A DNA stretch of 32,000 nucleotides from NCBI RefSeq assembly GCF_900184795.1, contig NZ_FXXN01000027.1:501336-533335 (forward strand), written 5' to 3'. Both the position numbers and the translations under genes were made by a program. Source of the DNA: Magnetospirillum sp. 15-1. Its GTDB lineage: Bacteria > Pseudomonadota > Alphaproteobacteria > Rhodospirillales > Magnetospirillaceae. Within the stretch, counting starts at the first letter, position 1; each line of letters opens with the position of its first letter. The notes under the pieces were generated by a model. It saw only the letters and a program-made list of their open reading frames with translations, made no database searches and had not been told where the DNA came from. Shown in pieces: positions 7,760 to 29,077 of this stretch.

Positions 7760-7949
7760 ATGGATGCAGATGGTGCGGCCAAGGATACCGTGAAAACCCA
7801 GAAACCCAAGGGATTCGCGCTCTTGGCCGGATTTTTCAATCGGAACATTAACGCAACAAACAGACACCAATCCACAAACACCGACACTCGTCCGCTGACT
7901 CATTGCTGTCCAAAGGGTGGCCCCTATATCCGGCAATGGAGAAACCGAT

Positions 7950-9173
7950 ATGCCGACCATTAAATTAACCGCTACCGCCGTCAAGAGTCTTGTTCCCAGC
8001 ACAACACCCATTCGCGTTTGGGATATCAACCTTCCAGGCTTCGGGGTGCGCGTCTGGCCGTCCGGCAAAAAGACCTACATGATCCAATTCCGGGACAAAT
8101 ACCGTCGCACGCGGTTCATGACCCTTGGTGACTCTCGCGTCGTCCATTTCGAGCAGGCGAAGGAGAAGGCTCGGGGAATCCTTGCCCGTAACACCTTGGG
8201 TGAGGAGATCGTCACGAAGCGGAAGGTTCCGCTCCTGACCATCGGTCAACTCATGGACCAATACATTGCGGGACGAATCGAGGAGCGGGAAACCAGAACT
8301 CTGGTCAATCTGAAATCACTGAACCGACGATATATAAAGCCACGATTTGGCAACACGCCGTATCAGGAATTGAGCCACAAGGACATCAAGGATTACCACG
8401 CCAAACTCACGAACGAGGGAAAGCCTTCCCAAGCCGACAATATGGTGAAATATCTCACCGCCATGTGGCATTGGTGCAGCCCTGAGATTATTGAAGATCG
8501 GCCATGTCCGTCGTTGAAAATAGAGTTCAATGGCTCGGAAGCACGGGAGCGCATCCTGTCTAACAAGGAGTATAGGGCGCTTTGGGCGGCCATTGATTGC
8601 CACATCCGTCAGCCAAGGGTCTACAAATACAGCGTGTGGGCTATCGAGTTCATCGTTTTGACCGGCATTAGGAAGAGTGAGGCCCTCGGCATCAAGAAAT
8701 CGGCTATCGACATGGATTCCTGCGTGATCCACGTCCAGGATAAAGGCCATTCACGAAGCAGAAAACAACGGTCAAAAGAGGTAGATATAACTGAACCAGT
8801 TAAAAATCTGCTGGAACGCATCACAGACTCAGAAAGTGAATATCTGTTCCCATCCTACCGAGACAAGGGCAAGCCCCTCAAATCAATTGATGCGGTGTGG
8901 GCACAAATCAGGAAGGATGCGGGCCTTCACTCGGAGGAAAAAGATCAAACCGTTTGGATACACGATCTTCGCCGGTCGTATATATCGTTTGGTACGGATG
9001 AAATGAATATATCGGTCAATGATGTGTCAAAGGCTGTCGGCCACAGTACCGTTGCCCTCACTGACAAATATTACAACCGGCAGAAGACGGAGAATAAGAA
9101 GAGAACAAACCAAAAAATCTCGGAAGGAATTGCCAGCATCCGGAATGCTGCCGATACAACGCAGCCTGGATAA
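7950..9173 (+). CDS. tyrosine-type site-specific integrase (P4-like, N-terminal DUF4102-type arm-binding domain)
   Basis: ORF 7917..9173 trimmed to the ATG at 7950, which has GGAG at 7938-7941. The N-terminus LTATAVKSL...WDINLPGFGVRVWPSGKKTYMIQFR is P4-integrase-like. Catalytic signatures HDLRRS and GHSTVALTDKYY are present. Confidence 0.9.
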   Translation: MPTIKLTATAVKSLVPSTTPIRVWDINLPGFGVRVWPSGKKTYMIQFRDKYRRTRFMTLGDSRVVHFEQAKEKARGILARNTLGEEIVTKRKVPLLTIGQLMDQYIAGRIEERETRTLVNLKSLNRRYIKPRFGNTPYQELSHKDIKDYHAKLTNEGKPSQADNMVKYLTAMWHWCSPEIIEDRPCPSLKIEFNGSEARERILSNKEYRALWAAIDCHIRQPRVYKYSVWAIEFIVLTGIRKSEALGIKKSAIDMDSCVIHVQDKGHSRSRKQRSKEVDITEPVKNLLERITDSESEYLFPSYRDKGKPLKSIDAVWAQIRKDAGLHSEEKDQTVWIHDLRRSYISFGTDEMNISVNDVSKAVGHSTVALTDKYYNRQKTENKKRTNQKISEGIASIRNAADTTQPG

Positions 9174-9204
9174 ATACCTCCATCATCAACTAATGGAGAT
9201 TCCC

Positions 9205-9618
9205 ATGTCCGACATCTGCGCAATCCCATCCCATCCACGGCCTGTCAGCATCGTGCTGGTTCCGATTGCCGGGATGGTGTCGGCCAGACCAGACCTGGGC
9301 CATTTCACGGCGCTTGAAGAGGTCAGGCTCTGCATGGCCGGGATGCCGATCAAGGATGCCGACATACGATTTTACGATATGCGCGACCACGGAAGTCGGA
9401 TCACCCTTGAATTCTCCGGCACCGCCATTGGCTACACTTCGATTGGCATGGCACCCGGCATCGAAATGGTGGCTCAGGCTCCAATTGAGGTCTCGACCGG
9501 TGATGTCGTCGGCATCGCCGACCGCGCCGCACTGAAACTCGGCCCAGTTATCACCATGCTTGATCCAGATGGTGACGTACTTCAAATGACCACAAACAGT
9601 TATGAGATCAATTTTTGA
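9205..9618 (+). CDS. hypothetical protein
   Basis: ORF 9019..9618 trimmed to the ATG at 9205, 7 nt after GGAG; 9193 is also possible. The composition is protein-like but no motif is recognised. Confidence 0.4.
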   Translation: MSDICAIPSHPRPVSIVLVPIAGMVSARPDLGHFTALEEVRLCMAGMPIKDADIRFYDMRDHGSRITLEFSGTAIGYTSIGMAPGIEMVAQAPIEVSTGDVVGIADRAALKLGPVITMLDPDGDVLQMTTNSYEINF

Positions 9619-9772
9619 TTTCGTAGAACTCTTCGCATTCAAAGCAGCGCAGTTTGCCGGATAAGGTCACGCAGAAAGTTATTCCACCGCAGTGCGGGCA
9701 GGTTCTGGCGTGATCATCAGGGTTTTTTGATCGATCATTTGGAAACTTTATGATTTTGCATTCACTCTCCAT
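9608..9772 (-). CDS. small zinc-ribbon protein (54 aa, CxxC-x14-CxxC)
   Basis: Not in the ORF track because it is under 60 aa. My translation is MESECKIIKFPNDRSKNPDDHARTCPHCGGITFCVTLSGKLRCFECEEFYEIKN. Its ATG at 9772 lies inside the last codons of the upstream gene (ATGGAGAGTGA). The ribbon aligns with the N-terminal ribbon of the 141-aa neighbour. Confidence 0.45.
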   Translation of the reverse strand: MESECKIIKFPNDRSKNPDDHARTCPHCGGITFCVTLSGKLRCFECEEFYEIKN

Positions 9773-10187
9773 TGATGTTTCCCGTTTCTAATTTTCGACA
9801 CTCCATTCTTATCCTCGTTAAATCAGCCTCTCGCTCGCACCACACCATGACCTCGGCATAGCCCAATCGGGAAAACACCACGTTCAGGTGAGTGGGGGTG
9901 AGTTCACCGCCGCCGTTGTCGGTCATGACGACCACACCCGCGCAGTTGGAGGTCAGTTTGCTCAAGGCGACAAACCCTTCACGGTCCATGGCAAATGATG
10001 AGTGGTGCGGAAATCGGGCGCCAAGAGCATTCATCCGTTCATCGATGTCGTGTTGTGGGTGCTCAGTTGGTGCATAAACGCATCCGCAATTTGCGCATCG
10101 GATAATATAATTGTGCATAATCAAGAAATTATATCTGCCACATGTCTGGCAGCTTATTACTATTTGGTTTTGATTGTTAATAGCCAT
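9762..10187 (-). CDS. zinc-ribbon domain protein (141 aa), function unknown
   Basis: A strong SD (GGAGGTG) lies 5 nt before the ATG at 10187. The N-terminal ribbon is SCQTCGRYNFLIMHNYIIRCANCGC (CxxC-x14-CxxC). The C-terminal ~95 aa are unrecognised. Confidence 0.65.
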   Translation of the reverse strand: MAINNQNQIVISCQTCGRYNFLIMHNYIIRCANCGCVYAPTEHPQHDIDERMNALGARFPHHSSFAMDREGFVALSKLTSNCAGVVVMTDNGGGELTPTHLNVVFSRLGYAEVMVWCEREADLTRIRMECRKLETGNINGE

Positions 10188-10250
10188 GGCATCACCTCCA
10201 TGACTATTTATGCTGCGTGAGCAGCAGCATGAAGGCCGTAGCAGGCGGGC

Positions 10251-11288
10251 CTATTGAGACAATGGCCGGGTGAAGACCTCCCAGAGATACATGGCGGCAT
10301 TCTTCACATTCAGAGATTCACGTCCCCGAGCGATCATCGCCATCCCCATGGCCTTGAGATAGATGTCTCGGCCATCATCCTCGACGAGAAGGCTTTCGTT
10401 GTAGCCATTGTCCTGGTCGATCTGAAACGACCCCTGCGAGTAGCAAATTTCCCGCCCCCGCCCAGACAGCCAAATTTTGCACCGGCCCACGCTCTTGCCA
10501 TCGACATAGACCTCGGCGGTGAATTTGTGCGGTGTCACCGGGGTATGGCGGCATTGAACGTGGGGGTGCTGGTCTCTTTCCAAAACCCCCAGCGCCTCCT
10601 GGAAATAGGTCGAAATCTCCTGCATCGCCTCGACCGCAAATTGATCCCGTTCAGCGTCTGAAATGCTCCGCTTGATCCTGGGAATGGAAATCGCGATGCC
10701 ATTTCGAACAGGAGGTGGCTCGGCAGTTTGCGGAGCCGGTTGTGGAATCGCCTCATGCGCCCAGTGAAGGGCGAACAGATTTGCCTCGCCCGCCCCCTTT
10801 GCCAATTGCTTCTTCCCGATGGAGGTGCCGCCGATATTGCGGACGTTCTCTCGGTGAAGCTGGGAGAAAAAGTGGTCAGAACACCACACCTCGTTGGGGG
10901 CAACCACCGGCTCGATCCGTGCGGCCCGATCAATCCCGCCACTGCTGACGTCGATGATCTTGCCACCCTCCTCGATCAAATTAACCTTCTGGAGATCGAG
11001 GCCGATGCGAATGGTCACCGAATCGGAAAAGCCAAGCCGTATCCAATCGGTGTTGCGAAAGCGATCCTTCACGGTGAGGGCCGCTTCGGCCATTTCGGTC
11101 CCATCCACCCCGCAGATGAAGAAGCCATCGCCGGTGTGCTTGGTGAGCAGAACCTGGAAGCGGCCCTCGATCTCGTCGAGCAGCCGATGAACGAAACGGT
11201 TCAAGTCGGTCTTCAAGCGATCATCGGTGATTTTCGATGACCCAACGATGTCGGCAAAGATGATGGGGCAAATCTGGGTGCGATTCAT
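10251..11288 (-). CDS. class III nucleotidyl cyclase (cyclase homology domain) fused to an unrecognised ~160-aa C-terminal domain
   Basis: The N-terminal ~180 aa carry the class III cyclase pattern: IIFADIVGSS (metal Asp), HTGDGFF (second Asp), TIRIGLD and GGIDRAARIEPVVAPNEVWCS. The C-terminal half (from ~IPRIKRSISDAERDQF to the end) has no motif I recognise and no TM segment. Confidence 0.75.
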   Translation of the reverse strand: MNRTQICPIIFADIVGSSKITDDRLKTDLNRFVHRLLDEIEGRFQVLLTKHTGDGFFICGVDGTEMAEAALTVKDRFRNTDWIRLGFSDSVTIRIGLDLQKVNLIEEGGKIIDVSSGGIDRAARIEPVVAPNEVWCSDHFFSQLHRENVRNIGGTSIGKKQLAKGAGEANLFALHWAHEAIPQPAPQTAEPPPVRNGIAISIPRIKRSISDAERDQFAVEAMQEISTYFQEALGVLERDQHPHVQCRHTPVTPHKFTAEVYVDGKSVGRCKIWLSGRGREICYSQGSFQIDQDNGYNESLLVEDDGRDIYLKAMGMAMIARGRESLNVKNAAMYLWEVFTRPLSQ

Positions 11289-11458
11289 GTCCGTCAGGTC
11301 ACCGGAGGTTTTGATATGCCCGCAAATTTACGCGATCCTCGGGAATCGCTCAAGATTTTGAGGTGATTTCAATCGAAACCACAAAATGCGACCCCCTCAT
11401 GACCAAAGGAGTCCTGCGAGTCACCCTCTGAGCCTGCCAAGGACAGTTGATGTGGCCT

Positions 11459-12487
11459 TCAGTGGCCTTCAGTACCCGGTGGTGCCATTGAGGATACTGA
11501 TCCTCGCATCCCAGAAACCAGCTTGGTCAACAGGGCAGCAAACTCCAAAACAGCATCAACTTTCACGACAATGCGTTGCTCTGGTTGATAGCTCTGATCC
11601 CCCGATTTTACGACGTACTTCTCATCGACGTGGCCGTCATTGTGTCCCAGCACATGGCGACGCTGGAAATAGACGTTCAGGCGGTCAATTTCTTGCTGAT
11701 CCAGATATACGGTGTAGGGGACGCCTGTGACTTTTTCCCACTCCAAGCTGCCATCCGTCAGATTCTGGAAAAGGTTTTGCCGGATACGACCCGAGTTATT
11801 GATCTGACTATAGAGGTATTTCGCCATGGTTTCGAACTGTGTCACACCACCCTTGATGGCGTCTTCAAGTAAAGTGTTTGCCAGATCAGCCGCCTGATCC
11901 TTGTCCAAGACCGCCCTGAGTGCCTCTATCGTTTCTGGTATCGTTCGTATCTTTGCGATTTTGGCGGAAAATGCCGCCTCGACGTCACGTTCACCGCAGC
12001 CTGGACAAAAATAGGCGGTCCCGATCACCGCATAGCGACACCCGCATTTTCCGCATGTAATTCTCGTCCGCATTGTTTCGGCAGCGGCAGCAGGAATCAT
12101 CACTGGCGGTGGCCTGCCAGTTTCCCGCACATCCATGGTCATCTTGAAGAACGAGTTGGACCTCTGACTACGGTTGAAATCAGAGGCTATGTCCTTGAAC
12201 ATTCGATTCAATTGAGTTGAGATCAGATGCTTCGCCTGCTCAAGAGCCATGGCCTTTGCGTGTTCTATCTGCTCTGTCGTCCACCAACTTCCTGGCGGTG
12301 CTTCATGACGACAAAACGGGCAAACCACTTGGCCTGATTGCTCGATGCGGTCCCAGTCGTCTTTCAGAATCTTGAATTGGGACAGGCAGTTTTCGTTGGG
12401 GCATTCCTTGTCGAGATAGCCATCATCATCGCCCTCGACCGGAACCGATATTTCCAGCCTGTCAGGAATATCGAAGTTGACTGGCAT
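11459..12487 (-). CDS. double zinc-ribbon protein with a C-terminal helical domain carrying an Rx4H (HEPN-like) motif; linked to hsdS
   Basis: ORF 11459..12493 trimmed to the ATG at 12487, 7 nt after GGAGG. That start is 23 nt downstream of the hsdS stop. Ribbons are CPNENC...CPFC and CGKCGCRYAVIGTAYFCPGCG. The motif FQRRHVLGHNDG is encoded at 11642-11665. Confidence 0.6.
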   Translation of the reverse strand: MPVNFDIPDRLEISVPVEGDDDGYLDKECPNENCLSQFKILKDDWDRIEQSGQVVCPFCRHEAPPGSWWTTEQIEHAKAMALEQAKHLISTQLNRMFKDIASDFNRSQRSNSFFKMTMDVRETGRPPPVMIPAAAAETMRTRITCGKCGCRYAVIGTAYFCPGCGERDVEAAFSAKIAKIRTIPETIEALRAVLDKDQAADLANTLLEDAIKGGVTQFETMAKYLYSQINNSGRIRQNLFQNLTDGSLEWEKVTGVPYTVYLDQQEIDRLNVYFQRRHVLGHNDGHVDEKYVVKSGDQSYQPEQRIVVKVDAVLEFAALLTKLVSGMRGSVSSMAPPGTEGH

Positions 12488-12510
12488 TCGCACGCCTCCA
12501 TCGCCACAAG

Positions 12511-13944
12511 CTATCGCTGCTTTCGTCCCCGCTTGGTCTTAGGTGCGGATTCCCGTGCCGCCGTGATTCGTTCCAGCAGCTTGGAGGCCGGTTCGTCGGC
12601 GGGGTCTTGCGGCACCAGCTTGCCGGTGAAGGCTTTGTCGAGGATGGATTGGTCGAGGCGGTCGATTAGTCCGGTTGCCCGCAACATCTCATGTTCCATC
12701 GTGTCGATTGCAGCCATCATCTGGGCAATGCGTTGATCAAGGACGATCTGTTCGTCATCGGGGATCAACGGTACCGCCAAATGGCTGAGTTTGGTGCCAT
12801 TGACATTGGCCTGACCAACCTGCTGGCTGACAACCGAACGAACCCAGGCACGGCCATAGGGTGAGTTGATATAAGCGGATAGAAGGGCGGGAATGATCCC
12901 AACCGCCTTCAAGCGAATCAGGTAAGAGGCGAAAGATGCCTTGGGAAGCTGGTCGCGGAAAACGGCGGACTTTCCAACCAATTCAGGACTGTTGGTGCGG
13001 TTGAACAGGATGTCACCCTGTTGCAGCAGCAATGCCGGAAATTCATCGTGATCGGCAGGAAGGTATTTCAGGTTCTCGACCTGAAGCTCACCCCGAACGA
13101 TGTTCCCCATCCGCAGGACGGGCACTCCATTCGCATCCTCATTGGTTTTTGCCGAGGTGCCGTATTGCATCTCCGTGGTCAATTGATCTACGGACGCCCA
13201 GGCCCAACCATCGGGCAACTCAATGTCTGGAAACCAATCCGCTTCCTCCGGTTCGGGGTAGTTTCGTCGCCGCGATGACGCTTGAGCCGCAAGCCAGCCG
13301 TCACGCCGGTCGGATAGCACCTTCCCGAGATGTTGTGTCGGGTTCCCAAGCGGATGCGATTCCCGCCAATCCGCCGTCAGGTCACCCCGGAATGCTGCCC
13401 CCAGCACCGCCTGCCGGTAGCGTTCGATCAGCCTGGGAATGTGGGCGAGTTCGTCCCTGGCCTGAGAGGATCGGGCAAACAGGGAATCGATCTTGGCAGC
13501 GATGCGGTGCTGTTCTGCGGTGGGGGCAATTGGCAGAGGGATGGTGTCGAGCGCCTTTTGCGTCAACTTCGGCTGCGCTGAGCCGGTCACAAACGGCGCG
13601 AGATCGATAGAGTTAAGGAATCGCTCAAGGTACTTAAGCGAGACGCCATCACATGGCTTCACAATGTGAGCGTGATTATTGACCCAGAATTTCCCCAAAG
13701 CTTGAAACGCAATTGGCGTTGAACGTGAAAGTAAGTTTGCCCCATCTTCTGCTATAAGCAGGTAGCTTCCATCAAACAGGTAACCATCCACATGATCGAT
13801 CACGCCCGAAGCCCCGAAGTATGGGAACGGGCCTTGCCGCTTTGCTCGGTCTGCACTTTTTACAGGTCTGCGGCGACCATCATGGTTCACGACGACTGAG
13901 CAAAACTGAGCTTGCCCCCACCCGCTCGGAAAATCGTCACTCAC
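12511..13944 (-). CDS. hsdS: type I restriction-modification system specificity subunit
   Basis: 477 aa with two variable target-recognition halves separated by conserved helical repeats (RYRQAVLGAAFRGDL in the centre, ILDKAFTGKLVPQD at the C-terminus). The start overlaps the hsdM stop by 4 nt. Confidence 0.9.
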   Translation of the reverse strand: MSDDFPSGWGQAQFCSVVVNHDGRRRPVKSADRAKRQGPFPYFGASGVIDHVDGYLFDGSYLLIAEDGANLLSRSTPIAFQALGKFWVNNHAHIVKPCDGVSLKYLERFLNSIDLAPFVTGSAQPKLTQKALDTIPLPIAPTAEQHRIAAKIDSLFARSSQARDELAHIPRLIERYRQAVLGAAFRGDLTADWRESHPLGNPTQHLGKVLSDRRDGWLAAQASSRRRNYPEPEEADWFPDIELPDGWAWASVDQLTTEMQYGTSAKTNEDANGVPVLRMGNIVRGELQVENLKYLPADHDEFPALLLQQGDILFNRTNSPELVGKSAVFRDQLPKASFASYLIRLKAVGIIPALLSAYINSPYGRAWVRSVVSQQVGQANVNGTKLSHLAVPLIPDDEQIVLDQRIAQMMAAIDTMEHEMLRATGLIDRLDQSILDKAFTGKLVPQDPADEPASKLLERITAARESAPKTKRGRKQR

Positions 13945-15419
13945 TCGGCAGCCTCCTCGACCTCGGCTGCGTCACCGCCAATCTCTTCGGCCAGGGCGGC
14001 GATCTCGTCCAAGGCGGCTTGCAGATGCCCCATGATGGCGGCGGCGATTTCGCCGGGTTCAGTCAGCCCGTCCTCGGGATCGGCACTGTCGTCCCGCAAC
14101 CAGGACAGGTCGAGATTGTCGTTGCGGTCGGCGATCTGCTGGCGGGTGAAGCACCGCCAACGGTCCTCGGGATCGACGAGGGTGGCGTCGCGGTTCCGAC
14201 CAAACGGGTCGTCACCGAAGACCCGCTCGAATGGGGCGAAGGTGCTGAGCAGCAGCGGACGGGTCTTGCCGAAGGCGGGCATATTGGCCCGCATGTCATA
14301 GACCCATACCGCCTGGGTGTTGGCCTTGGCGGTCTTGCCCCTGGTGAAGAAGATGACGTTGGTCTTGACCCCTTGGGCATAGAAGATGCCGGTGGGTAAC
14401 CGCAGGATGGTGTGCAGGTCGCACCAATCCATCAGCATCTGACGGAGTGCCCGGCCCGCATTGTCCTCAAACAGCACATTGTCCGGCACCACCACGGCGG
14501 CCCGGCCTCCGGGCTTCAAGGCTCGGATGATGTGTTCGACGAAAGCCAATTGCTTGTTGGACACGTCGGCGGTGACCGAGAAATCACCACGGGTCGGCCT
14601 GCCACCCCCCTTCTTGGTGCCGAAGGGGGGATTGGTGATGATGACGTTGGCTTGGCCCAGCGATTCGCCCTCATGGGACAGGGTATCGCCCTGCTGGACG
14701 CCATAGCCTGCATCGCCACCAATGCCGTGCAGCATCAGATTCATCAGGCAAAGGCGATGGGTATCGGCAACCAGTTCCAACCCGACAAAGGCGGCGTTGC
14801 GTTGGAAAAACCGCTGCTCTTCGGCCAGAGCATAGAGGTCATCGGTCTGGGCCTTGATGAAATGATCGGCGGCAACCAGAAAACCGGCGGTTCCGGCGGC
14901 GGGGTCTTGGATCACCTCGCCCGGCTGCGGCTTGATCAGACGGATGATGCAGTCGATCAGCGGACGTGGGGTGAAATACTGCCCGGCCCCGCTCTTCTTC
15001 TCGGCGGCGTTCTTTTCCAACAGCCCTTCGTACAGATTGCCCAGGCCCTCCTCACGGGCTGTGAACCAGTCGAGGCCGTCGATGGCCTCGACAATGGCCT
15101 TCAAATTGGTGGGCTTCTTCAACCGGCTTTGGGCGTCGGCGAAGATCGCCAGCACCAAGCCGCGCCCGTTGGTGCCGAGGTCGAGCAACAGGTGCTTGTA
15201 AAAGGTCAGTTGCTCCAGACCTTCCCGGCGAACCAGATCACCCCACCGTTTGCCCTCGGGCAACTGATCCTCGCGACCCGTCTCCGCCATCATCTTTAAG
15301 AACAGCAGGTAGGTCAGTTCGGTCACGTATTCGTGATACGTGATGCCGTCATCGCGGAGGATGTCGCAGAGACGCCAGAGCTTGGCGACGATATCGGTGG
15401 TGACGGTCATGACAAGCAA
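13941..15419 (-). CDS. hsdM: type I restriction-modification system N6-adenine DNA methyltransferase subunit
   Basis: It has an HsdM N-terminal domain (VAKLWRLCDILRDDGI...YVTELTYLLFLK), AdoMet motif I (DPAAGTAGFL) and motif IV (NPPFG). The track start at 15419 is TTG; the ATG at 15410 is an alternative. Confidence 0.95.
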   Translation of the reverse strand: MLVMTVTTDIVAKLWRLCDILRDDGITYHEYVTELTYLLFLKMMAETGREDQLPEGKRWGDLVRREGLEQLTFYKHLLLDLGTNGRGLVLAIFADAQSRLKKPTNLKAIVEAIDGLDWFTAREEGLGNLYEGLLEKNAAEKKSGAGQYFTPRPLIDCIIRLIKPQPGEVIQDPAAGTAGFLVAADHFIKAQTDDLYALAEEQRFFQRNAAFVGLELVADTHRLCLMNLMLHGIGGDAGYGVQQGDTLSHEGESLGQANVIITNPPFGTKKGGGRPTRGDFSVTADVSNKQLAFVEHIIRALKPGGRAAVVVPDNVLFEDNAGRALRQMLMDWCDLHTILRLPTGIFYAQGVKTNVIFFTRGKTAKANTQAVWVYDMRANMPAFGKTRPLLLSTFAPFERVFGDDPFGRNRDATLVDPEDRWRCFTRQQIADRNDNLDLSWLRDDSADPEDGLTEPGEIAAAIMGHLQAALDEIAALAEEIGGDAAEVEEAAE

Positions 15420-15501
15420 GCATCCTTCTCAAAAATAACGGCAGCGGAACACATTATGCCGCCTCACGTACCGAGCCACATCCGGATTCCCACTCAGGAA
15501 A

Positions 15502-16389
15502 TCAGACCCCTTTGATAAACCGCATCTCGTCCAAAATTACGCATCCTCCATCAATGGAGAAAACGACTTCGAGAATTTCAGAAAATGCCTGTGACCGAAT
15601 TCTGAGCACATTTGGCAATATTTCTTTGTCGCAATTATTGTAATGCAGACTTGATTCAATTTCACAATCGTGACCGGCAAGACGAATGAAGTTTGAGTTT
15701 CCATCAGGATAGACAGCAATATGCGGTCGAAGCTTGTTTCCATTGGCGTCAAAAACTTCTGGCTGACCCTTTACCCCGAACAGAAAATCAAAACACCTCA
15801 CCCCTGAAACGCGATGAGGCTTGATGCTTGCGACAACAAATAGTCCAGATTCGCTTTTCTGCTTCATCTCCCTTTTAGAAGCAGAAAGGTAAATTTCTCT
15901 TGGGTCAGATAAATTTGTCGCGGATGCATTGCCGATCAACGAAATCGTTCCATGAGACAATCCATCTGTGGGGATGGAGATCAATGCCGCAGATGATGGT
16001 GTGGTCTCCCCCCGAACGGTGTTTGTTGACAAAATAATTTTGTCATCAAGTAACACCGTTTCTATGCCGTCACGCACGATGGAAGCACGGTGAACCTCCA
16101 TTGAACTGGCGACTCCACTTTCAGAGCGAATTTCGGCCCTGAAGGGGATTTTCCCAGAGGACATTCGTTCAGCGAAATCCCGCCATGATCTGTCATCGCT
16201 TTGGCAGCATGCCTTATATTTTCGTCCACTACCGCATGGGCAGGGCATGTTGGCACTGGGTGGCTGCGGATTGTGTTCACAAGCAAGTTTCTTGGACAGT
16301 GATGCTTTTGCCATGTCCACCTGCTGGCAGCATCGCTTGTATTTTTTACCACTACCACAGTGGCATGGAGCGTTAACGCCTAAGCTCAT
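15502..16389 (-). CDS. protein with two N-terminal SEC-C metal-binding motifs and an unrecognised ~220-aa C-terminal domain
   Basis: The two motifs are CHCGSGKKYKRCC and CPCGSGRKYKACC. The ATG is 18 nt after the hsdR stop. GC is visibly lower than its neighbours: ~43% in line 15541 versus ~60% in line 17401 (hand counts). Confidence 0.7.
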   Translation of the reverse strand: MSLGVNAPCHCGSGKKYKRCCQQVDMAKASLSKKLACEHNPQPPSANMPCPCGSGRKYKACCQSDDRSWRDFAERMSSGKIPFRAEIRSESGVASSMEVHRASIVRDGIETVLLDDKIILSTNTVRGETTPSSAALISIPTDGLSHGTISLIGNASATNLSDPREIYLSASKREMKQKSESGLFVVASIKPHRVSGVRCFDFLFGVKGQPEVFDANGNKLRPHIAVYPDGNSNFIRLAGHDCEIESSLHYNNCDKEILPNVLRIRSQAFSEILEVVFSIDGGCVILDEMRFIKGV

Positions 16390-16407
16390 GCATTCCGTCA
16401 GCGGGAC

Positions 16408-19400
16408 TTAGCCCGCCTTCCTCCATATGTCCTCACGGATATCCCCGAGAATGGCTTCCAGCTTGCCGCCGAACAGCTTGTTCAGCCGTTCGAAGCCACC
16501 ATCCTGTTTGTACTGGCTGGACTCGAAGTAGTCCCGATCAACCACGACCTCCTTCGCCACGTCGTCGCCGATGCGGTTCAGCCATTTCTTCTGAACCGGT
16601 GTCCAATCGTGGCTCTTGAGAATTCGCCCCATGGCGTCCTTCACCCGGTCGGCATAGGGCCGTAACGGATCGCCCAGGGCGGCTTGACGGACATAGCCGA
16701 TGATGGAGGCCGCGATATCCTCGGACTTCGCCTGTTCCCAGGCCCGGTGCAGGGCTGCTTCAGTGAAGGACTGACCGTCGAGGATCATTCTGACCTTCCG
16801 CAAATCCTCCCGCGTCAGGTCGCGGGGCCGCTGAACCACGATGGACAGGGCCGCCACCTTGTTGACGTTATCGCGGACCCAGGCGGTGAAGGAGTCCAGA
16901 TAATCCTCGGGACGTTTCCACTTGTCACCGAATACGGGGGCGGCGGAAATCAGGTGGTCAGGGTGTTCGGAGATCGGGATGGGATCACCGGGCCGGTCTG
17001 GACGCCAATCCAGAATGGGGCCGAGCTTGGGGCGGTCTTTGAACCATGCCGCCAGATCGCCCACGGATGAATCGGCAACCCGCTTCACGGTGGATTCGGG
17101 GGGTTCCCCCGCCGCCTGCTCGTACATCTGCCGTCCCTGCTCGGACAGCAATTTGGCCCGGCGTTTCAGCTTGGTTTCGATCTGGGCACGGATGGCTTCG
17201 CGGTGGCGGTCATCGGTGACGCTGACCAATTCCTCCAGCAGCTTGGCGAAGGTGATCTTCGGTTCGACGCCGACCGGCTTCATATCTGTGAGGTCTTCGA
17301 GGGTCGGGTAAAGATCAACCGCGTCGAAAATGCGGAACACCTCCTTGCCGATTTCGTCGCATCGCCGCGTCGCCCGACCCAGCATCTGCTCGTACAGAAT
17401 GCGGCTGTTGACCCGACGCAGGAACACCAGATTGGTGATCTTGGGGACATCGACTCCGGTGGTCAGCAGATCGACGGTGACGGCAATTTTCGGCTGCGGG
17501 TCATTACGGAACGAAAGGGTGAGCGACCGGGCCTTGTCCACGCTGCCGGTGATCTTTCGCACATCGCCATCATCAACACTGCCGTAGGTGTCCTCCAACG
17601 CCTGCTTGACCTGCTCCACCACCATGTCGGCATGGGCGTCACTGGCCGCGAAGATCAGGGTTTTGTCGGGCAGGCTGGGGTCGATGTATTGCACCAGGGC
17701 CTGGGCCACGGCCTTGTTGAATTGCTCGGTGATGACCTTCTTGTTGAACTGCTCGATCTCGTAATTCAGTTCGTCGGGGGCATAGGCGGTGACGATGGTG
17801 CCGTCCGTGGTATTCAGCAGGTCGAGCTTTTCGCCCTTTTCCCACTTGATCCCCGCCACCGACAGGGCGGTTTCGATGCGGATCGGCGGTTCGTGGTCGA
17901 TCAGATAGCCGTCGATCACCGCTTCCCGGTAGCTGTACTTGTAGATCGGCTCGCCGAAGATATCGACGGTGTGCAAAGCGGGGGTGGCGGTCAGGCCGAT
18001 CTTCACCGCGTCGAAATGCTCCAGCACCCGGCGATATTTGCTGATGTAATCGGCTTGGTCGCGGAACTCCAACTCGGTGTCGGACAATTCGCGGTCAAGC
18101 AGGTAGCCTCGGTGGCATTCATCGACAACGATCAGATCGTACTGATCGACGGACGGCGTATTGGCGGGATCGTCGGCCCCCAGCACCCTGCGGGCCAGGG
18201 CTTGGATGGTGCAGACATGCACTTTGGTTTCGGCATCGGGGTCGATATCCCCCAGTCCCTTCACCCCGAACACGTCGGCAAAGGTGCGGACGCCGAAGAC
18301 CTTGGTGGTGTTGAACTCATTGGCGGTCTGGACACCCAGGATGTTGCGATCTACCACGAAGCAGACCCGCCGGAACCTCTTGGATTCCAGCAATCGGGAC
18401 AGCATGGCGATGGCAAGCTTGGTCTTTCCGGTGCCGGTCGCCATGGCGACCAGCATCTGACGGCGATCATCGGCAAGGGCTTCCTCGACCTTCTCGATGG
18501 CCTTGCGTTGGTAGGGGCGAAGGTCGAAGCCGAAATTCATGGTCATAGATTTCAAGGCGGTCTGGGCCGTTTCCCGGTCCATGGCAAGCTGGCCCCGCAA
18601 CCCATCGGGTGTCGGCCAATCCACCAGGGCACGACGGCGATTGGTGGACTTGCGAGTGTCGCGAAACCAGATGCCGGATTCCGTCTCGATTTGCTTCAGG
18701 TATTCGCGGCCATTGGTGGCGAAAACGAAGGGGATGCGATAATCGCCCCAGGGACCATCCAACCCGACACCCTGGATGGCTTTGAAGCCCTTGGCATAGC
18801 GTTCGGCCTGATCGATGGCAGCGGAGACGTTCTTTCGTTTCCGCTTGGCCTCGATCACAGCGATGCAGGTGGTGTCGATGAACAGGGCATAGTCGGCCCG
18901 GCCATCATCGGTCGGCCATTCGGCAATCGCCATGGCCTTACCTTTGGCCGGACGGGCACCCGATTGATAGGTGATGGACTGGCTATCGACATCCCAACCA
19001 CGATCACGCAGGTGGCGATCAATGATGGATCGGGTTGCCGCTTCGTCCAGGTCGATGGCGGCGGCGGCGGATTGAGCAGCGGTAAGGACCAATGCCATGG
19101 TCGCTGGGGCGGTCGGTGTTGCGGCTTGTGCGGCCTGAAGTTCCTGGACCAAGGCCGCTTGCTTGGCCTCGGCTTCGTCGAGCAGTTTGCGTAATGCCGC
19201 TTTTTCTTCGGCCTCGATGCGAATGCGATCTTCGGCGGATAGGCGGGCCTGTTCCGCCTGCTGGACCGCGACCTGGGCCTGTTCCGCCGCCGACAATGAC
19301 GCGGCATGTTGGACGCGAAGGCGTTCCAGTTCGGCGGCCAGGGCGGCTCCTGCACGCTGCGGATCGGCGGGCGGGGCAAAAGGCTTGGGCTGAAAGGTCT

Positions 19401-19779
19401 TGTTGCCGCCATAGGAACGGTGGAACCAAACCGTCAATTGCCACGCCATCTTCAGGGCGTTGAGGGCCGCCCCCTGATCGGCATAGCCGTGATGGGTGGC
19501 CTTATTACCGACGATGCGGATTTCATGGAACAACCGGGCGGCATCACGGGGAATCGCTCCCCGATCCTCCAGTCGTTCCAGCAAGTCTTTCTGGGTTTCG
19601 CGCGGATCGCCGGTTTCACGCAGTCTGGAGGCGATGGTCTGCGCCATGGCCTCACCGAACTGCCGCAACTTGATGAGGGTGGTGTTGGTGTCTTCCCGAA
19701 AATAGCGTTCGGCCAGCGTGCCGAGTCGGACAAGCTGGGTGTGTGCGGTCAGAAAACCAAAGTTGGAAGACGGCTGCAC
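16408..19779 (-). CDS. hsdR: type I restriction endonuclease subunit R with an N-terminal DUF4145/HEPN-like domain and a coiled-coil extension
   Basis: 1123 aa with a GTG start after AGAGG. It has Walker A (MATGTGKT) and a DEAD-box-type motif (VVDECHRG). The N-terminus (FGFLTAHTQLVRLGTLAERYF...IRIVGNKATHHG) is DUF4145-like. An Ala/Glu/Gln-rich coiled coil follows at about residues 145-220. Confidence 0.95.
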   Translation of the reverse strand: MQPSSNFGFLTAHTQLVRLGTLAERYFREDTNTTLIKLRQFGEAMAQTIASRLRETGDPRETQKDLLERLEDRGAIPRDAARLFHEIRIVGNKATHHGYADQGAALNALKMAWQLTVWFHRSYGGNKTFQPKPFAPPADPQRAGAALAAELERLRVQHAASLSAAEQAQVAVQQAEQARLSAEDRIRIEAEEKAALRKLLDEAEAKQAALVQELQAAQAATPTAPATMALVLTAAQSAAAAIDLDEAATRSIIDRHLRDRGWDVDSQSITYQSGARPAKGKAMAIAEWPTDDGRADYALFIDTTCIAVIEAKRKRKNVSAAIDQAERYAKGFKAIQGVGLDGPWGDYRIPFVFATNGREYLKQIETESGIWFRDTRKSTNRRRALVDWPTPDGLRGQLAMDRETAQTALKSMTMNFGFDLRPYQRKAIEKVEEALADDRRQMLVAMATGTGKTKLAIAMLSRLLESKRFRRVCFVVDRNILGVQTANEFNTTKVFGVRTFADVFGVKGLGDIDPDAETKVHVCTIQALARRVLGADDPANTPSVDQYDLIVVDECHRGYLLDRELSDTELEFRDQADYISKYRRVLEHFDAVKIGLTATPALHTVDIFGEPIYKYSYREAVIDGYLIDHEPPIRIETALSVAGIKWEKGEKLDLLNTTDGTIVTAYAPDELNYEIEQFNKKVITEQFNKAVAQALVQYIDPSLPDKTLIFAASDAHADMVVEQVKQALEDTYGSVDDGDVRKITGSVDKARSLTLSFRNDPQPKIAVTVDLLTTGVDVPKITNLVFLRRVNSRILYEQMLGRATRRCDEIGKEVFRIFDAVDLYPTLEDLTDMKPVGVEPKITFAKLLEELVSVTDDRHREAIRAQIETKLKRRAKLLSEQGRQMYEQAAGEPPESTVKRVADSSVGDLAAWFKDRPKLGPILDWRPDRPGDPIPISEHPDHLISAAPVFGDKWKRPEDYLDSFTAWVRDNVNKVAALSIVVQRPRDLTREDLRKVRMILDGQSFTEAALHRAWEQAKSEDIAASIIGYVRQAALGDPLRPYADRVKDAMGRILKSHDWTPVQKKWLNRIGDDVAKEVVVDRDYFESSQYKQDGGFERLNKLFGGKLEAILGDIREDIWRKAG

Positions 19780-20246: not shown

Positions 20247-20960
20247 TTACGGGCAGCCGGTGAAAAAATGTCCCTGCCTTTGCTCATCAGTCAGAACAGG
20301 CGGCTTCCCATCTGGCGTACAGCCCGGTAACTCGGAGCGCGTTTCAGATACCCAATTCGGATCAGACGGATACTTACGCATGAGCTTGTTAATCCGCTCA
20401 ATCCCATAGTCTGCAATCTCTTTGCAGAACGCAACATCAGCCCCATCATTCATTGCATACCGCAGATCACGGTTTGCTACTTCGGCGCATTCCTGGATAG
20501 AACGAGATTCTGACATAACAACACCACGCGGGATATATTGCCCAACATCAATACTATGATCTTGGAGCCACTTCATGCTGGTTTCAGCAATACGATTGGC
20601 TTTTTCCCGGATTTTCCAGCACGCTTCACCACGTTCATGCAGATTCTTGCCGGTGGCATCCTTATTCATCACCCGGTCCCGTTCACGACGCCAAAATTCG
20701 GGGTTATCGATTTCCTTGTAGGTCAGTGGAGGAGGCAGATTGCCAGCTTGATCTGGATGACCTTGCCCGCCCCCGATCCCAAGGCGACGGGCATAGGGCG
20801 GCGGCGGATCATCAGGGCGCTCCTGAAAATATTCACTTTTATACTGAGGCGGGTTTTGTTGGGCTGAGCAGGGGGGGACGACGAGCGCCATCACGGCCAC
20901 CACCGGGATCGTAAACGCAAAGCTACAGCTTGCGAACCGCTGCTCGAAGCATCTCATCAT
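20247..20960 (-). CDS. secreted hypothetical protein (signal peptide, Pro-rich N-region, several Cys)
   Basis: The N-terminus MMRCFEQRFASCSFAFTIPVVAVMALVVPPCSA-QQ looks like a Sec signal peptide. Its 5' end overlaps the 3' end of the recombinase gene by 38 nt. Its stop abuts the SpoVG-like stop with no spacer. Confidence 0.5.
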   Translation of the reverse strand: MMRCFEQRFASCSFAFTIPVVAVMALVVPPCSAQQNPPQYKSEYFQERPDDPPPPYARRLGIGGGQGHPDQAGNLPPPLTYKEIDNPEFWRRERDRVMNKDATGKNLHERGEACWKIREKANRIAETSMKWLQDHSIDVGQYIPRGVVMSESRSIQECAEVANRDLRYAMNDGADVAFCKEIADYGIERINKLMRKYPSDPNWVSETRSELPGCTPDGKPPVLTDEQRQGHFFTGCP

Positions 20961-21510
20961 TCACCTCAATGTACCGCTGGGTGGTGGAGAGATTTCGGTG
21001 CCCCGCCAGGGTCATGATGACCTTGGCGCTGACGCCAGAATGGGCCAACCGGGTGATGAACCACCGCCGACCCGAATGGCTGCTGGCCCCATCGATTCCG
21101 GCCTCACGGTAGATGGAACCAAACAACTGGCACAGCGAGTTTGGGGTGAATGGGCCGCCGCGCTGGGTGGGCAGCAGGGGTGAGGATGCGTCTCGCCGGG
21201 TACCGTCCAACCCCGCGACATAGGCTTCCAATTCAGGACGCAATTTGGCCCCCACGAAGATCGAACGAGCTTCGCCGGACTTGGTGGTGGAGGCCCGCAA
21301 CAGGATGCGTTCCTTCACGTCATTGCGGGCACCCACGACGTCGCCCACGGTCAGAGCCGCGATTTCCCCAACCCGCAATCCACCATAGAAGCTCAGCATC
21401 AGAGCCACCCGGTTCCGAGCCGCATGCTTCATGTCCGAGATCGTGGCAAGGACGCGCCGGAACTCCCTGTCCGTCAGCACTTTGGCCTGCTTCATTCCCA
21501 CCCCCGTCAT
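20923..21510 (-). CDS. short tyrosine recombinase (catalytic domain only, ~195 aa)
   Basis: ORF 20923..21732 trimmed to the ATG at 21510; 21495 is also possible. Catalytic signatures are GLRVGE (Arg), HSGRRWF (H-x-x-R) and LAGHRNLSTTQRYI (His, Tyr). No N-terminal core-binding domain is present. The region upstream of 21510 is AT-rich and not protein-like. Confidence 0.75.
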   Translation of the reverse strand: MTGVGMKQAKVLTDREFRRVLATISDMKHAARNRVALMLSFYGGLRVGEIAALTVGDVVGARNDVKERILLRASTTKSGEARSIFVGAKLRPELEAYVAGLDGTRRDASSPLLPTQRGGPFTPNSLCQLFGSIYREAGIDGASSHSGRRWFITRLAHSGVSAKVIMTLAGHRNLSTTQRYIEVNDEMLRAAVRKL

Positions 21511-21830
21511 GATGGCCGCTCCCAAGCGAACCCGATCACCGTGAGGCTGCCAGAATACCGAAGAAAATGCACCGAAGATGATATCAGCTAGAAAGTTATG
21601 GCGCAAGTTGCGCAAGGAAAAAATCATCATATCCGGGATTGAAGGCTGCGCGTTGGCAAGTGACAACATAACTGCGCCATTCTGCAAAAATGTTAACATG
21701 GTCAATGCATTGGAATGTGACGAAATTAACATAAAAGGTGCAGGATGTGCGGTCGCCGATATCCTGCGTCCAGGATGATTACTGTGTGTTTTCCATCTCT
21801 TAATCAGGAATCCAAGCAGGGGGCTTGATC

Positions 21831-29059: not shown

Positions 29060-29077
29060 GACAGCCTCGAATTGTAC

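What the first reader, a model, noticed from the sequence alone, without database searches (positions are those of the whole stretch)
9608..11288. Class III cyclase fused to an unknown domain, followed by two zinc-ribbon genes: candidate non-canonical nucleotide-signalling defence module
Seen in sequence:
- The 345-aa protein has a complete-looking cyclase homology domain (FADIVGSS, GDGF, RIGL, GGIDRAARIE..VWCS).
- That domain is followed by ~160 aa that match nothing I recognise. There is no TM helix and no cNMP-binding, TIR or SAVED signature.
- A 141-aa gene follows 63 nt downstream on the same strand, with a strong SD. A 54-aa gene then starts inside the stop region of the 141-aa gene.
- Both downstream proteins carry the same CxxC-x14-CxxC ribbon.
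- The trio has its own 170-bp upstream gap and sits directly after a type I R-M operon inside an integrase-bounded island.

Established knowledge: stand-alone class III cyclases act as signal generators in Pycsar anti-phage systems. In those systems the partner effector carries a cNMP-binding domain fused to TM or TIR modules.

Inference: no such effector is present here. The unknown C-terminal domain and/or the zinc-ribbon proteins would have to be the sensor or effector, which makes this a different architecture from described Pycsar loci.
Basis: partly seen in the sequence, partly recalled or inferred. Interest (0 to 1): 0.8.

Follow-up and report, generated by a model that had tools for sequence, protein, structure and literature searches.

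The report
Solo cyclase fused to Y4lF domain
One gene in a mobile defence island encodes a nucleotide cyclase tethered to the widespread, uncharacterised 'Y4lF' domain, which in other bacteria carries TIR, nucleosidase or protease heads; it therefore looks like a one-protein infection sensor with a cyclase output, and the two zinc-ribbon genes beside it are local passengers rather than partners.

Summary
The sequence observations hold. All three genes lie on the minus strand.

- **Cyclase:** the 345-aa protein (WP_096704063.1, Magnetospirillum sp. 15-1) has a genuine class III cyclase domain. Both metal-binding Asp residues and the catalytic Arg are invariant across the family.
- **C-terminal domain:** the "unknown" domain is Pfam PF27176 (Y4lF). 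This is a large family (at least 621 clusters at E ≤ 1e-10) and the domain is almost always C-terminal. The N-terminal head is interchangeable: TIR is commonest, then class III cyclase, then PNP, SEFIR, CHAT, GGDEF and DUF4062. TIR–Y4lF proteins match PADLOC's ThsB model PDLC00420 end to end. Our protein matches only that model's C-terminal half.
- **The trio is not a module.** None of eight other cyclase–Y4lF loci has the zinc-ribbon genes. DNA homology to the closest relatives (85%) covers only the ORF plus about 100 nt upstream and stops at the stop codon.
- **Context:** no cNMP-binding effector is linked anywhere. Neighbours are defence genes: type I R-M, HEC-05, HEC-07, Lamassu LmuB, a TIR protein and PDC-M14A.

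Best reading: a self-contained single-gene sensor–output protein, probably for defence, with Y4lF as the trigger-sensing or oligomerising module. It is a new variant of a known kind and has not been tested experimentally.

The parts
10251..11288 (-). Cyclase-Y4lF gene (345 aa; WP_096704063.1, annotated 'hypothetical protein', Magnetospirillum sp. 15-1). This is the whole functional unit proposed here.
   Evidence: ORF. 100% match. Eight full-length homologues at 40-88% identity. 85% DNA identity to L004/L008, confined to this ORF plus its 5' region.
10749..11288 (-). Residues 1-180: class III nucleotidyl cyclase catalytic domain. Metal-binding residues D13 and D54, adenine-type pair K50 and D113, D121 at the canonical Asn position, transition-state R124.
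   Evidence: Foldseek against PDB at E about 1e-10, TM-score up to 0.82 normalised to the target. Family profile against PDB cyclases at E=2.9e-15. D13, D54 and R124 invariant in 18 family members. Residue mapping taken from the 3mr7 alignment plus textbook knowledge of class III cyclases.
10680..10748 (-). Residues 181-203: Pro-rich linker predicted to be disordered.
   Evidence: pLDDT below 50 for residues 181-203. Poorly conserved in alignments A1 and A6.
10254..10679 (-). Residues 204-345: Y4lF domain (Pfam PF27176). One long helix, a six-stranded antiparallel sheet and a C-terminal helix. Proposed sensor or oligomerisation module.
   Evidence: Precomputed Pfam hit. PADLOC PDLC00420 positions 173-315, E=1.9e-22. 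Domain-only AF2 model with pLDDT 94.4. No significant structural neighbour in PDB or BFVD. At least 621 clusters at E ≤ 1e-10.
11289..11390 (-). Conserved 5' region of the cassette, with a weak sigma-70-like promoter: -35 TTGAGC (11353-11348), 17-nt spacer, -10 TAAATT (11330-11325).
   Evidence: 85% DNA identity to L004/L008 begins at 11390. Three-way alignment. The hexamers match 8 of 12 positions, below the scan tool's threshold, so promoter function is an inference.
11390..11413 (-). Terminator-like hairpin followed by a T-run, after the upstream 344-aa gene. It marks the upstream boundary of the cassette.
   Evidence: It coincides with the start of DNA homology to L004/L008.
9762..10187 (-). 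Neighbouring 141-aa gene: an N-terminal zinc ribbon plus a C-terminal domain of about 90 aa carrying a TDNGGGELTP motif. Possibly co-transcribed here, but lineage-specific and not a conserved partner.
   Evidence: No matches in plasmids, PHROGs, viral contigs or metagenomes.
9608..9772 (-). Neighbouring 54-aa zinc-ribbon ORF that overlaps the 141-aa gene by 11 nt. Weakly supported as a gene and not conserved near any homologue.
   Evidence: Zn_ribbon_IS1595 E=0.0012, below the cut-off. phrog_24897 E=5.5e-5. Weak codon-position GC pattern. Absent from L004.

Best explanation
The feature is one self-contained gene, not a trio. It encodes a two-domain protein. An N-terminal class III nucleotidyl cyclase, most likely an adenylyl cyclase, is joined by a disordered linker to a C-terminal Y4lF domain.

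Y4lF is the constant module of a large family of proteins carried on mobile elements and in defence islands. The N-terminal head of this family is interchangeable: TIR is by far the commonest, then class III cyclase, then PNP, SEFIR, CHAT, GGDEF and DUF4062. All of these heads are enzymes that become active only when brought together as dimers or oligomers.

Proposed mechanism (inferred):
1. Y4lF senses an infection-associated trigger, either a phage protein or a small molecule.
2. Y4lF then self-associates or changes conformation.
3. This brings two cyclase domains into the head-to-tail dimer that forms the class III active sites.
4. ATP is converted to cAMP and pyrophosphate.
5. The physiological output is either an abortive-infection-like ATP drain or cAMP flood, or a second messenger read by unlinked host receptors.

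What is shown: the domain identities, conservation of the catalytic core, the domain-swap pattern, the single-gene cassette structure, the defence-island context, and the absence of a conserved partner or linked receptor.

What is inferred: the sensing role of Y4lF, activation by oligomerisation, the nucleotide used, and the defence phenotype.
For: **Cyclase domain**
- Cyclase fold and profile matches.
- D13, D54, R124 and E126 are invariant in 18 cyclase-Y4lF proteins.
- K50 and D113, the adenine-type pair, are kept in the close subfamily.
- The nearest cyclase-domain relatives (47-52% identity) are REC-cyclase response regulators next to a hybrid histidine kinase. This clade is therefore a regulated signalling output.

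**Y4lF family**
- 1000 representatives at E ≤ 1e-3 and 621 at E ≤ 1e-10. The domain is C-terminal in nearly all of the top 150.
- N-terminal heads in the top 150: TIR_2 60, Guanylate_cyc 10 by Pfam (about 15 by phmmer), PNP_UDP_1 3, SEFIR 2, CAP12-PCTIR TIR 2, and GGDEF, CHAT, Peptidase_C25 and DUF4062 once each.
- TIR-Y4lF proteins match PADLOC ThsB model PDLC00420 end to end, at E from 1e-101 to 1e-163.
- Cyclase-Y4lF (L002) and TIR-Y4lF (L009, L022) share the same optional partner of about 165 aa. The two heads therefore work in the same genetic system.

**Single-gene cassette**
- 85% DNA identity to L004/L008 covers only 10250-11390.
- The 5' region is conserved.
- The genes on both sides differ in every locus.

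**Defence context**
- Window: type I R-M plus PDC-M14A.
- L001: type I R-M plus HEC-05/GmrSD. L004/L008: hsdS plus HEC-07 (E=2e-173). L006: LmuB (E=2e-104). L002: a TIR protein plus PIN. L007: Tn7-like cargo.
- TIR-Y4lF on plasmids sits next to AbiEii, methyltransferases, a PLD anti-phage protein, a reverse transcriptase, HipA, CHAT and Fic.

**Precedent**
- Single proteins with an N-terminal effector and a C-terminal sensor: Vulcan, Vesta VstA, Evangelion and Metis MisA.
Against: - There is no experimental evidence for any Y4lF protein, and a full-text search found no literature on it.
- The Y4lF fold has no significant structural neighbour. The best PDB hit has E=0.034 and all TM-scores are below 0.4, with only faint SRPBCC/START-like hits. 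Its sensing role rests on architecture alone.
- The canonical ribose-contacting Asn is Asp in this protein. That position varies across the family (D/E/N/T/V/I), and the base-specifying positions also vary. Activity and product are therefore uncertain.
- All cyclases known in phage defence are signal generators paired with a linked receptor, and none is linked here. A cyclase acting as the terminal effector has no precedent that I know of.
- One homologue (L003) sits alone among glycolysis and Calvin-cycle genes.
- About a third of the Y4lF loci examined carry a partner of about 160 aa, so the family is not always single-gene.
- In this window no terminator separates the cyclase gene from the 141-aa gene. 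A local accessory role for the small genes cannot be excluded.
Confidence: 0.5

Rival explanations
1. Signal generator with an unlinked receptor (a Pycsar- or Thoeris-like logic in trans). Y4lF senses infection, the cyclase makes cAMP or another cNMP, and a receptor encoded elsewhere (a CRP/FNR-type regulator or another cNMP-binding protein) executes the response. This overlaps with the best explanation and differs only in the final step.
For: - The nearest cyclase relatives are REC-regulated signalling cyclases.
- TIR-Y4lF is filed by PADLOC as ThsB, the signal-generating component of Thoeris.
- GGDEF also occurs as a head.
- Every cyclase known in phage defence is a signal generator (my own knowledge).
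Against: - No cNMP-binding, SAVED, CARF, SLOG or Macro protein lies next to any of the nine cyclase-Y4lF loci.
- No ThsA lies within 5-6 kb of any of the 13 TIR-Y4lF loci.
- A horizontally mobile single-gene cassette that depends on a host-encoded receptor would be fragile.
- Most of the other heads (PNP, SEFIR, DUF4062, CHAT) are terminal effectors.
Confidence: 0.25
2. One reading: a three-gene operon in which the 141-aa and 54-aa zinc-ribbon proteins act as sensor, effector or antitoxin for the cyclase.
For: - The three genes share a strand, with a 63-nt gap and then an 11-nt overlap. The 141-aa gene has a strong Shine-Dalgarno sequence, and no terminator lies between the genes.
- A relative of the 141-aa protein's C-terminal domain lies two genes downstream of the 88%-identical homologue in L004.
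Against: - The zinc ribbons are absent from all eight other loci. L004's relative lacks the ribbon and is only 37% identical, although the cyclases are 88% identical.
- DNA homology stops at the cyclase stop codon.
- The only database homologue of the 141-aa protein is a paralogue on a different contig of the same genome. No second cyclase-Y4lF from that genome appeared in the search.
- No hits in PADLOC, PHROGs, plasmids, viral contigs or metagenomes.
- The 54-aa ORF has weak coding signals.
Confidence: 0.1
3. Not a defence gene: an ordinary cAMP-signalling protein, possibly serving the mobile element, in which Y4lF binds a metabolite and tunes cAMP-dependent regulation (for example element maintenance or host physiology).
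For: - L003 has a housekeeping neighbourhood.
- The cyclase clade is shared with two-component regulators.
- Faint SRPBCC-like (ligand-binding) structural hits.
- The namesake y4lF lies on a symbiosis plasmid among non-defence genes.
Against: - The repertoire of heads (TIR, PNP, SEFIR, DUF4062, CHAT, CAP12-type TIR) is that of conflict systems, not housekeeping signalling.
- Defence genes are immediate neighbours in most loci.
- The gene behaves like a cassette inside the variable slot downstream of hsdS in four related islands.
Confidence: 0.15

Closest known systems
TIR-Y4lF proteins (PADLOC model PDLC00420 'ThsB1|ThsB'; namesake Y4lF, WP_010875294.1, of plasmid pNGR234a)
   Same: - Homologous C-terminal Y4lF domain (E=1.9e-22 to the PADLOC model; 29-34% identity by tblastn).
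- Same overall size (about 320-345 aa) and same order of head, linker and Y4lF.
- Same contexts (mobile elements, defence genes).
- In some loci the same optional partner of about 165 aa.
   Different: - The head is a class III cyclase instead of a TIR domain, so the chemistry is NTP cyclisation rather than NAD+ cleavage or ADPR-derived signalling.
- None of the 13 TIR-Y4lF loci examined has a ThsA, so even the 'ThsB' label is untested for this clade.
Pycsar (PycC cyclase plus an effector with a cNMP-binding domain)
   Same: A stand-alone class III-type cyclase in a defence island, presumed to be switched on by infection.
   Different: - No PycC model in PADLOC matches.
- The solved uridylate cyclase 8jsz is only a borderline profile hit (E=0.009), against 3e-15 for ordinary adenylyl cyclases.
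- The specificity residues are adenine-type.
- No adjacent cNMP-binding effector in any locus.
- It carries a C-terminal Y4lF domain.
Single-protein sensor-effector defence systems (Vulcan NIR-HEAT, Evangelion DUF4062-AUX, bSEFIR, DSR2, Vesta VstA, Metis MisA)
   Same: - One polypeptide with an N-terminal enzymatic head and a C-terminal recognition module.
- Heads are swapped between systems.
- Located in defence islands or on plasmids.
   Different: - In those systems the head degrades NAD+.
- Here the head is a cyclase and the C-terminal module is an unrelated small alpha/beta domain with no known ligand.
REC-cyclase response regulators (P0010-P0014)
   Same: Closest cyclase-domain sequences (47-52% identity), with the same conserved core motifs.
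   Different: - The regulatory domain is an N-terminal phospho-receiver next to a histidine kinase.
- They have Gln at the position of K50.
- Their context is housekeeping signalling.

Membership tests
Class III nucleotidyl cyclase (Pfam PF00211) | Cyclase-homology-domain fold (beta-alpha-beta-beta-alpha-beta palm) | tested here: met
   AF2 model, then Foldseek: Rv1900c, Ma1120, 3mr7, CyaB and GC-A at E about 1e-10, TM-score 0.7-0.82 normalised to the target.
Class III nucleotidyl cyclase (Pfam PF00211) | Significant sequence or profile similarity | tested here: met
   The single sequence is below the Pfam cut-off (E=0.037, 14.1 bits against 21.9). The family profile hits 45 PDB cyclases, the best at 2.9e-15. 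Ten family members hit PF00211 at E ≤ 1e-3.
Class III nucleotidyl cyclase (Pfam PF00211) | Two metal-binding Asp residues and the transition-state Arg | tested here: met
   D13, D54 and R124 are invariant in 18 cyclase-Y4lF proteins. They align to the corresponding residues of 3mr7.
Class III nucleotidyl cyclase (Pfam PF00211) | Transition-state/ribose Asn (the N-x-x-x-R motif) | tested here: not met
   Asp121 occupies the Asn position (GIDRAAR against AVNVAAR in 3mr7). The position is D/E/N/T/V/I across the family.
Class III nucleotidyl cyclase (Pfam PF00211) | Cyclase activity and identity of the product | not testable with these tools
   Needs enzymology and LC-MS.
Y4lF domain family (Pfam PF27176) | Match to the family model, with the domain at the C-terminus | tested here: met
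   Precomputed PF27176 hit on this protein and all full-length homologues. A profile of the domain retrieves 621 clusters at E ≤ 1e-10. The local Pfam copy lacks this model.
Thoeris ThsB (PADLOC PDLC00420) | N-terminal TIR domain | tested here: not met
   Only model positions 173-315 of 319 match, and residues 1-180 are a cyclase. Genuine TIR-Y4lF proteins match positions 1-318.
Thoeris ThsB (PADLOC PDLC00420) | Adjacent ThsA effector (SIR2-SLOG or Macro-TM) | tested here: not met
   None in the window or in any homologue locus.
Pycsar | PycC-type cyclase | tested here: not met
   No PADLOC PycC hit at E ≤ 1. The uridylate cyclase 8jsz is matched at E=0.0089 over 54 residues only.
Pycsar | Neighbouring effector with a cNMP-binding domain fused to TM or TIR | tested here: not met
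   No PF00027 or equivalent in the window's neighbours or in eight homologue loci.
Any named PADLOC system | A complete set of system genes | tested here: not met
   The only hits are the partial ThsB match, and PDC-M14A on the upstream gene. DefenseFinder was not available.

The most novel reading that the evidence does not exclude
Y4lF is a general infection-sensing, self-associating module that can drive any oligomerisation-activated enzyme. The cyclase-Y4lF version is a complete one-protein anti-phage system whose lethal or arresting output is nucleotide cyclisation itself (ATP drain, cAMP flood or both). That would be an effector chemistry not yet described in bacterial immunity. It would also show that the clade PADLOC calls 'ThsB' is in fact a separate family that does not depend on ThsA.
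Probability: 0.25. Interest if true: 0.8.

Novelty: new variant of a known kind. Interest (0 to 1): 0.6.

Why it matters
- **A new sensor module to study.** If the reading is right, Y4lF is an unstudied and very common module of prokaryotic conflict systems (hundreds to thousands of sequence clusters). Finding its trigger would explain a whole family at once, including the TIR proteins that current tools label as ThsB even though the loci examined here have no ThsA.
- **A convenient experimental handle.** The cyclase version gives an output (cNMP) that is easy to measure. It also tests whether a nucleotide cyclase can be a terminal immune effector rather than only a signal generator.
- **A smaller construct to clone.** The work shows that the unit to clone is a single 1.15-kb cassette, not the three-gene fragment.

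Tried and rejected
- **Zinc-ribbon genes as partners: rejected.** Eight homologue loci were compared all-against-all, and DNA homology has sharp boundaries. The 141-aa protein gave only one paralogue in 5.8 billion proteins. It gave nothing in plasmids, PHROGs, viral contigs or metagenome contigs. Its paralogue's locus could not be fetched.
- **Structural identification of Y4lF: no result.** Foldseek against PDB and BFVD with a high-confidence domain model found nothing significant. In the full-length search, cyclase hits filled the list.
- **More genomic contexts: little gained.** The genome-contig scan returned only two loci already known, and the source genome is not in that collection. A first attempt failed because the alignment was too diverse. 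The metagenome scan found only REC-cyclases and distant cyclases. The phage collection gave no match.
- **Bulk PADLOC scan of 56 neighbours: uninformative.** R-M models dominated the summary. It was replaced by a targeted scan of the immediate neighbours.
- **Link between the 141-aa protein and the recurrent ~160-aa Y4lF partner: rejected** (hhalign probability 0.06).
- **Literature:** no paper mentions Y4lF or PDC-M14. The Thoeris papers read did not describe this ThsB clade.
- **Other checks:** no Rfam family in or around the locus and no tRNA at the island edge.
- **Unresolved:** which of the two antisense ORFs at 9174-9618 is real.
Full report
**1. What is in the sequence**

The reported interval holds three ORFs, all on the minus strand: 345 aa (10251-11288), 141 aa (9762-10187) and 54 aa (9608-9772).

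- The stated distances are right. There is a 63-nt gap and then an 11-nt overlap, and 170 nt lie upstream of the first gene.
- The 141-aa gene has a GGAGGTGA ribosome-binding site.
- Both small proteins carry CxxC-x14-CxxC.
- Upstream on the same strand lie a 344-aa double zinc-ribbon protein that matches PADLOC candidate PDC-M14A (E=4.6e-15), then hsdS, hsdM, a SEC-C-motif protein and hsdR.
- A tyrosine integrase (7917-9173, +) sits at the junction with high-GC core DNA (malic enzyme gene). A second integrase lies at 20923-21732.
- GC falls from about 0.67 to 0.45-0.6 at about 7.7 kb and stays low to the end of the window. That stretch also encodes a resolvase, an HNH_2 protein and an Mrr-type nuclease.
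- The 345-aa protein is identical to WP_096704063.1, a 'hypothetical protein' of Magnetospirillum sp. 15-1.
- The two small ORFs are not present as called proteins in the 15-billion-protein collection.

**2. The cyclase domain is real**

- The single sequence is only a sub-threshold Pfam hit (PF00211, E=0.037).
- An AlphaFold2 model (mean pLDDT 84.7, linker residues 181-203 disordered) superposes on solved class III cyclases. These include Rv1900c, Ma1120, 3mr7, CyaB and GC-A, at E about 1e-10 and TM-score up to 0.82 normalised to the target.
- A profile of 18 family members hits 45 PDB cyclases, the best at 2.9e-15.
- In that 18-sequence alignment the two metal-binding aspartates (D13, D54), the transition-state arginine (R124) and E126 are invariant.
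- In the close subfamily, the positions that specify adenine in canonical enzymes are Lys50 and Asp113. This mapping comes from the 3mr7 alignments plus textbook knowledge of the KTIGD and D-x-x-G-x-x-x-N-x-x-x-R motifs.
- The canonical Asn is replaced by Asp121, and this position varies across the family. That is a caveat on activity.
- The closest cyclase-domain sequences outside the family (47-52% identity) are REC-cyclase response regulators. One of them lies next to a large hybrid histidine kinase. The domain therefore comes from a clade of regulated, signal-producing cyclases.
- PADLOC's Pycsar cyclase models do not match. The solved uridylate cyclase is only a borderline hit (E=0.009).

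**3. The 'unknown' C-terminal domain**

Residues 204-345 are Pfam PF27176, named Y4lF after a gene of the symbiosis plasmid pNGR234a. The local Pfam copy lacks this model, which is why one search did not show it.

- The same residues match positions 173-315 of the 319-position PADLOC model PDLC00420 ('ThsB1|ThsB'), E=1.9e-22.
- Five TIR-Y4lF proteins, including Y4lF itself, match that model end to end at E from 1e-101 to 1e-163. The PADLOC model therefore is the TIR-Y4lF family, and our protein shares only its C-terminal half.
- A profile of the domain, searched against 1.84 billion representative proteins, found 1000 proteins at E ≤ 1e-3 and 621 at E ≤ 1e-10. The domain is C-terminal in nearly all of the best 150.
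- Pfam scanning of those 150 gave these N-terminal heads: TIR_2 in 60, Guanylate_cyc in 10, PNP_UDP_1 in 3, SEFIR in 2, CAP12/Pycsar-type TIR in 2, ThsB_TIR in 2, and GGDEF, CHAT, Peptidase_C25, DUF4062 and DUF2513 once each. A phmmer search with our own cyclase domain raises the cyclase count to about 15 full-length proteins.
- Many of the short entries are truncated TIR or cyclase proteins. A few appear to be stand-alone Y4lF proteins. None has an N-terminal transmembrane extension.
- A domain-only AlphaFold2 model is very confident (pLDDT 94.4). It consists of one long helix, a six-stranded antiparallel sheet and a C-terminal helix.
- Foldseek finds no significant neighbour in the PDB (best E=0.034, TM below 0.4, with a scatter of SRPBCC/START/Aha1 and E2-like hits) or among viral models.
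- No paper in the searchable library mentions Y4lF.

**4. The trio is not a conserved unit**

I retrieved eight other cyclase-Y4lF loci (L001-L008; 40-88% identity) and compared all ORFs against each other.

- None has a zinc-ribbon gene beside the cyclase gene.
- Only L004 (88% identical cyclase) has a relative of the 141-aa protein. It is a 107-aa protein that lacks the ribbon, is 37% identical over the C-terminal 92 residues, and lies two genes downstream behind an unrelated 112-aa gene.
- DNA comparison is decisive. The window is 85% identical to L004 and L008 only across 10250-11390. That is the ORF plus about 100 nt of 5' sequence, and the homology stops at the stop codon.
- The conserved 5' segment starts at the terminator-like hairpin of the upstream gene (11413-11390). 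It contains a weak promoter-like pair of hexamers, TTGAGC-17 nt-TAAATT.
- The upstream neighbours differ too: PDC-M14A here, HEC-07 with or without a 152-aa gene in L004/L008, and GmrSD/HEC-05 plus two other genes in L001.
- The 141-aa protein has a single homologue among 5.8 billion proteins. It is a 77% paralogue (WP_141400424.1) on a different contig of the same genome. No second cyclase-Y4lF from that genome appeared.
- The 141-aa protein has no hits in PADLOC, PHROGs, plasmids, viral contigs or metagenome contigs.
- In this window the small genes may be co-transcribed with the cyclase gene, because no terminator was found between them. They are nonetheless lineage-specific neighbours.

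**5. Context supports a conflict role**

Immediate neighbours of cyclase-Y4lF genes:

| Locus | Neighbours |
|---|---|
| Window | Type I R-M, PDC-M14A |
| L001 | Type I R-M, HEC-05/GmrSD |
| L004, L008 | hsdS, HEC-07 (E=2e-173) |
| L006 | Lamassu LmuB (E=2e-104), a methyltransferase |
| L002 | A TIR protein (PDC-S66), PIN |
| L007 | Tn7-like TniB/TniQ |
| L005 | A PIN_12 gene and SrfB/virulence-factor-type genes |
| L003 | Central-metabolism genes only |

- Thirteen TIR-Y4lF loci (L009, L012-L015, L021-L028) show the same picture. Their neighbours include AbiEii, methyltransferases, a PLD-type anti-phage protein, an HTH-reverse transcriptase operon, HipA, CHAT proteins, Fic, IS elements and integrases.
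- None of those 13 loci has a ThsA within 5-6 kb.
- No cNMP-binding, SAVED or similar receptor is linked to any cyclase-Y4lF gene.
- A divergent partner protein of about 155-170 aa recurs next to Y4lF genes in seven loci, one with a cyclase head and six with TIR heads. The two heads therefore serve the same genetic system.
- That partner is absent from the window and unrelated to the 141-aa protein.

**6. Mechanism**

The shown facts are these:
- a catalytically plausible class III cyclase;
- a flexible linker;
- a constant C-terminal module shared with TIR, PNP, SEFIR, DUF4062, CHAT and GGDEF heads;
- single-gene cassette behaviour;
- defence-island context;
- no linked receptor.

The heads have one thing in common (established knowledge). 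TIR domains, class III cyclases, GGDEF domains, caspase-like proteases and PNP enzymes are all active only as dimers or higher oligomers.

The most economical inference is that Y4lF senses a trigger and drives self-association. This assembles the head-to-tail cyclase dimer and switches on ATP-to-cAMP conversion.

Whether the consequence is an ATP drain or cAMP flood (the effector reading), or a message to unlinked receptors (the signalling reading), cannot be decided here. I put about 0.5 on the overall single-protein sensor-output defence reading and split the last step roughly evenly.

Recent single-protein systems with an N-terminal effector and a C-terminal recognition domain provide the architectural precedent. 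Examples are Vulcan, Vesta VstA, Evangelion and Metis MisA.

**7. Comparison and novelty**

- The protein is a member of the class III cyclase superfamily and of the Y4lF family.
- It is not a ThsB, because it has no TIR domain and no ThsA.
- It is not a Pycsar system, because it has no PycC-type cyclase and no cNMP-binding effector.
- It works most like a single-chain sensor-effector defence protein.
- The cyclase-Y4lF architecture exists in at least about 15 sequence clusters. It is unannotated and absent from the literature searched.
- I rate it a new variant of a known kind, with interest 0.6. The domain-swap family it led to is a good experimental target.

Noticed in passing
L002:5502-5990, L009:6243-6758, L022:4889-5401, L014:5449-5934, L028:2135-2599, L021:6474-6980, L025:6473-6979: A divergent family of proteins of about 155-170 aa recurs immediately next to Y4lF-domain genes: upstream, downstream or convergent. 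It occurs with both cyclase and TIR heads. It has no Pfam or PADLOC match and is absent from the window.
   Followed up: partly
L021:4246-6423 and L025:4246-6423: An HTH regulator, a reverse transcriptase and a TIR-Y4lF gene form a tight operon on two Roseobacteraceae plasmids. This may be an RT-associated variant of the family.
   Followed up: no
window 11459-12493 (-): A 344-aa protein with two zinc ribbons matches PADLOC candidate PDC-M14A over residues 14-169. Its C-terminal half contains RRHVLGH, an Rx5H motif that may be HEPN-like. It is a separate defence candidate wedged between hsdS and the cyclase cassette.
   Followed up: partly
window 12511-19779 (-): The type I R-M operon has a 295-aa SEC-C-motif protein (15502-16389) inserted between hsdM and hsdR. 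HsdR carries an N-terminal DUF4145 and a C-terminal EcoEI_R_C domain. The slot downstream of hsdS holds different defence candidates in related islands: PDC-M14A here, HEC-05 in L001 and HEC-07 in L004/L008.
   Followed up: partly
window 9174-9618: Two fully overlapping antisense ORFs (199 aa on +, 150 aa on -) lie between the integrase and the 54-aa ORF. Both show a coding-like codon-position GC pattern and neither has any homologue or family hit. Which one is real, if either, is unresolved.
   Followed up: partly
window 28469-31214: The low-GC island continues to the end of the window with a serine resolvase (28469-29080, -), an HNH_2 endonuclease protein (29270-30301, +) and an Mrr_cat restriction-type nuclease (30312-31214, -). 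No tRNA gene marks the island edge.
   Followed up: no
L016:5605-10714: The nearest relatives of the cyclase domain are REC-cyclase response regulators encoded next to a 1354-aa hybrid histidine kinase (Reg_prop/Y_Y_Y/HATPase_c/Hpt). These have Gln where the window protein has the adenine-specifying Lys50.
   Followed up: partly
window 10680-10700 and Y4lF family members: A short basic motif directly precedes the Y4lF domain across the family, whatever the N-terminal head. It reads IPRIKR in the window protein, and PKIKK or SSNLR[IV][KR][KR] elsewhere. Its role is unknown.
   Followed up: no
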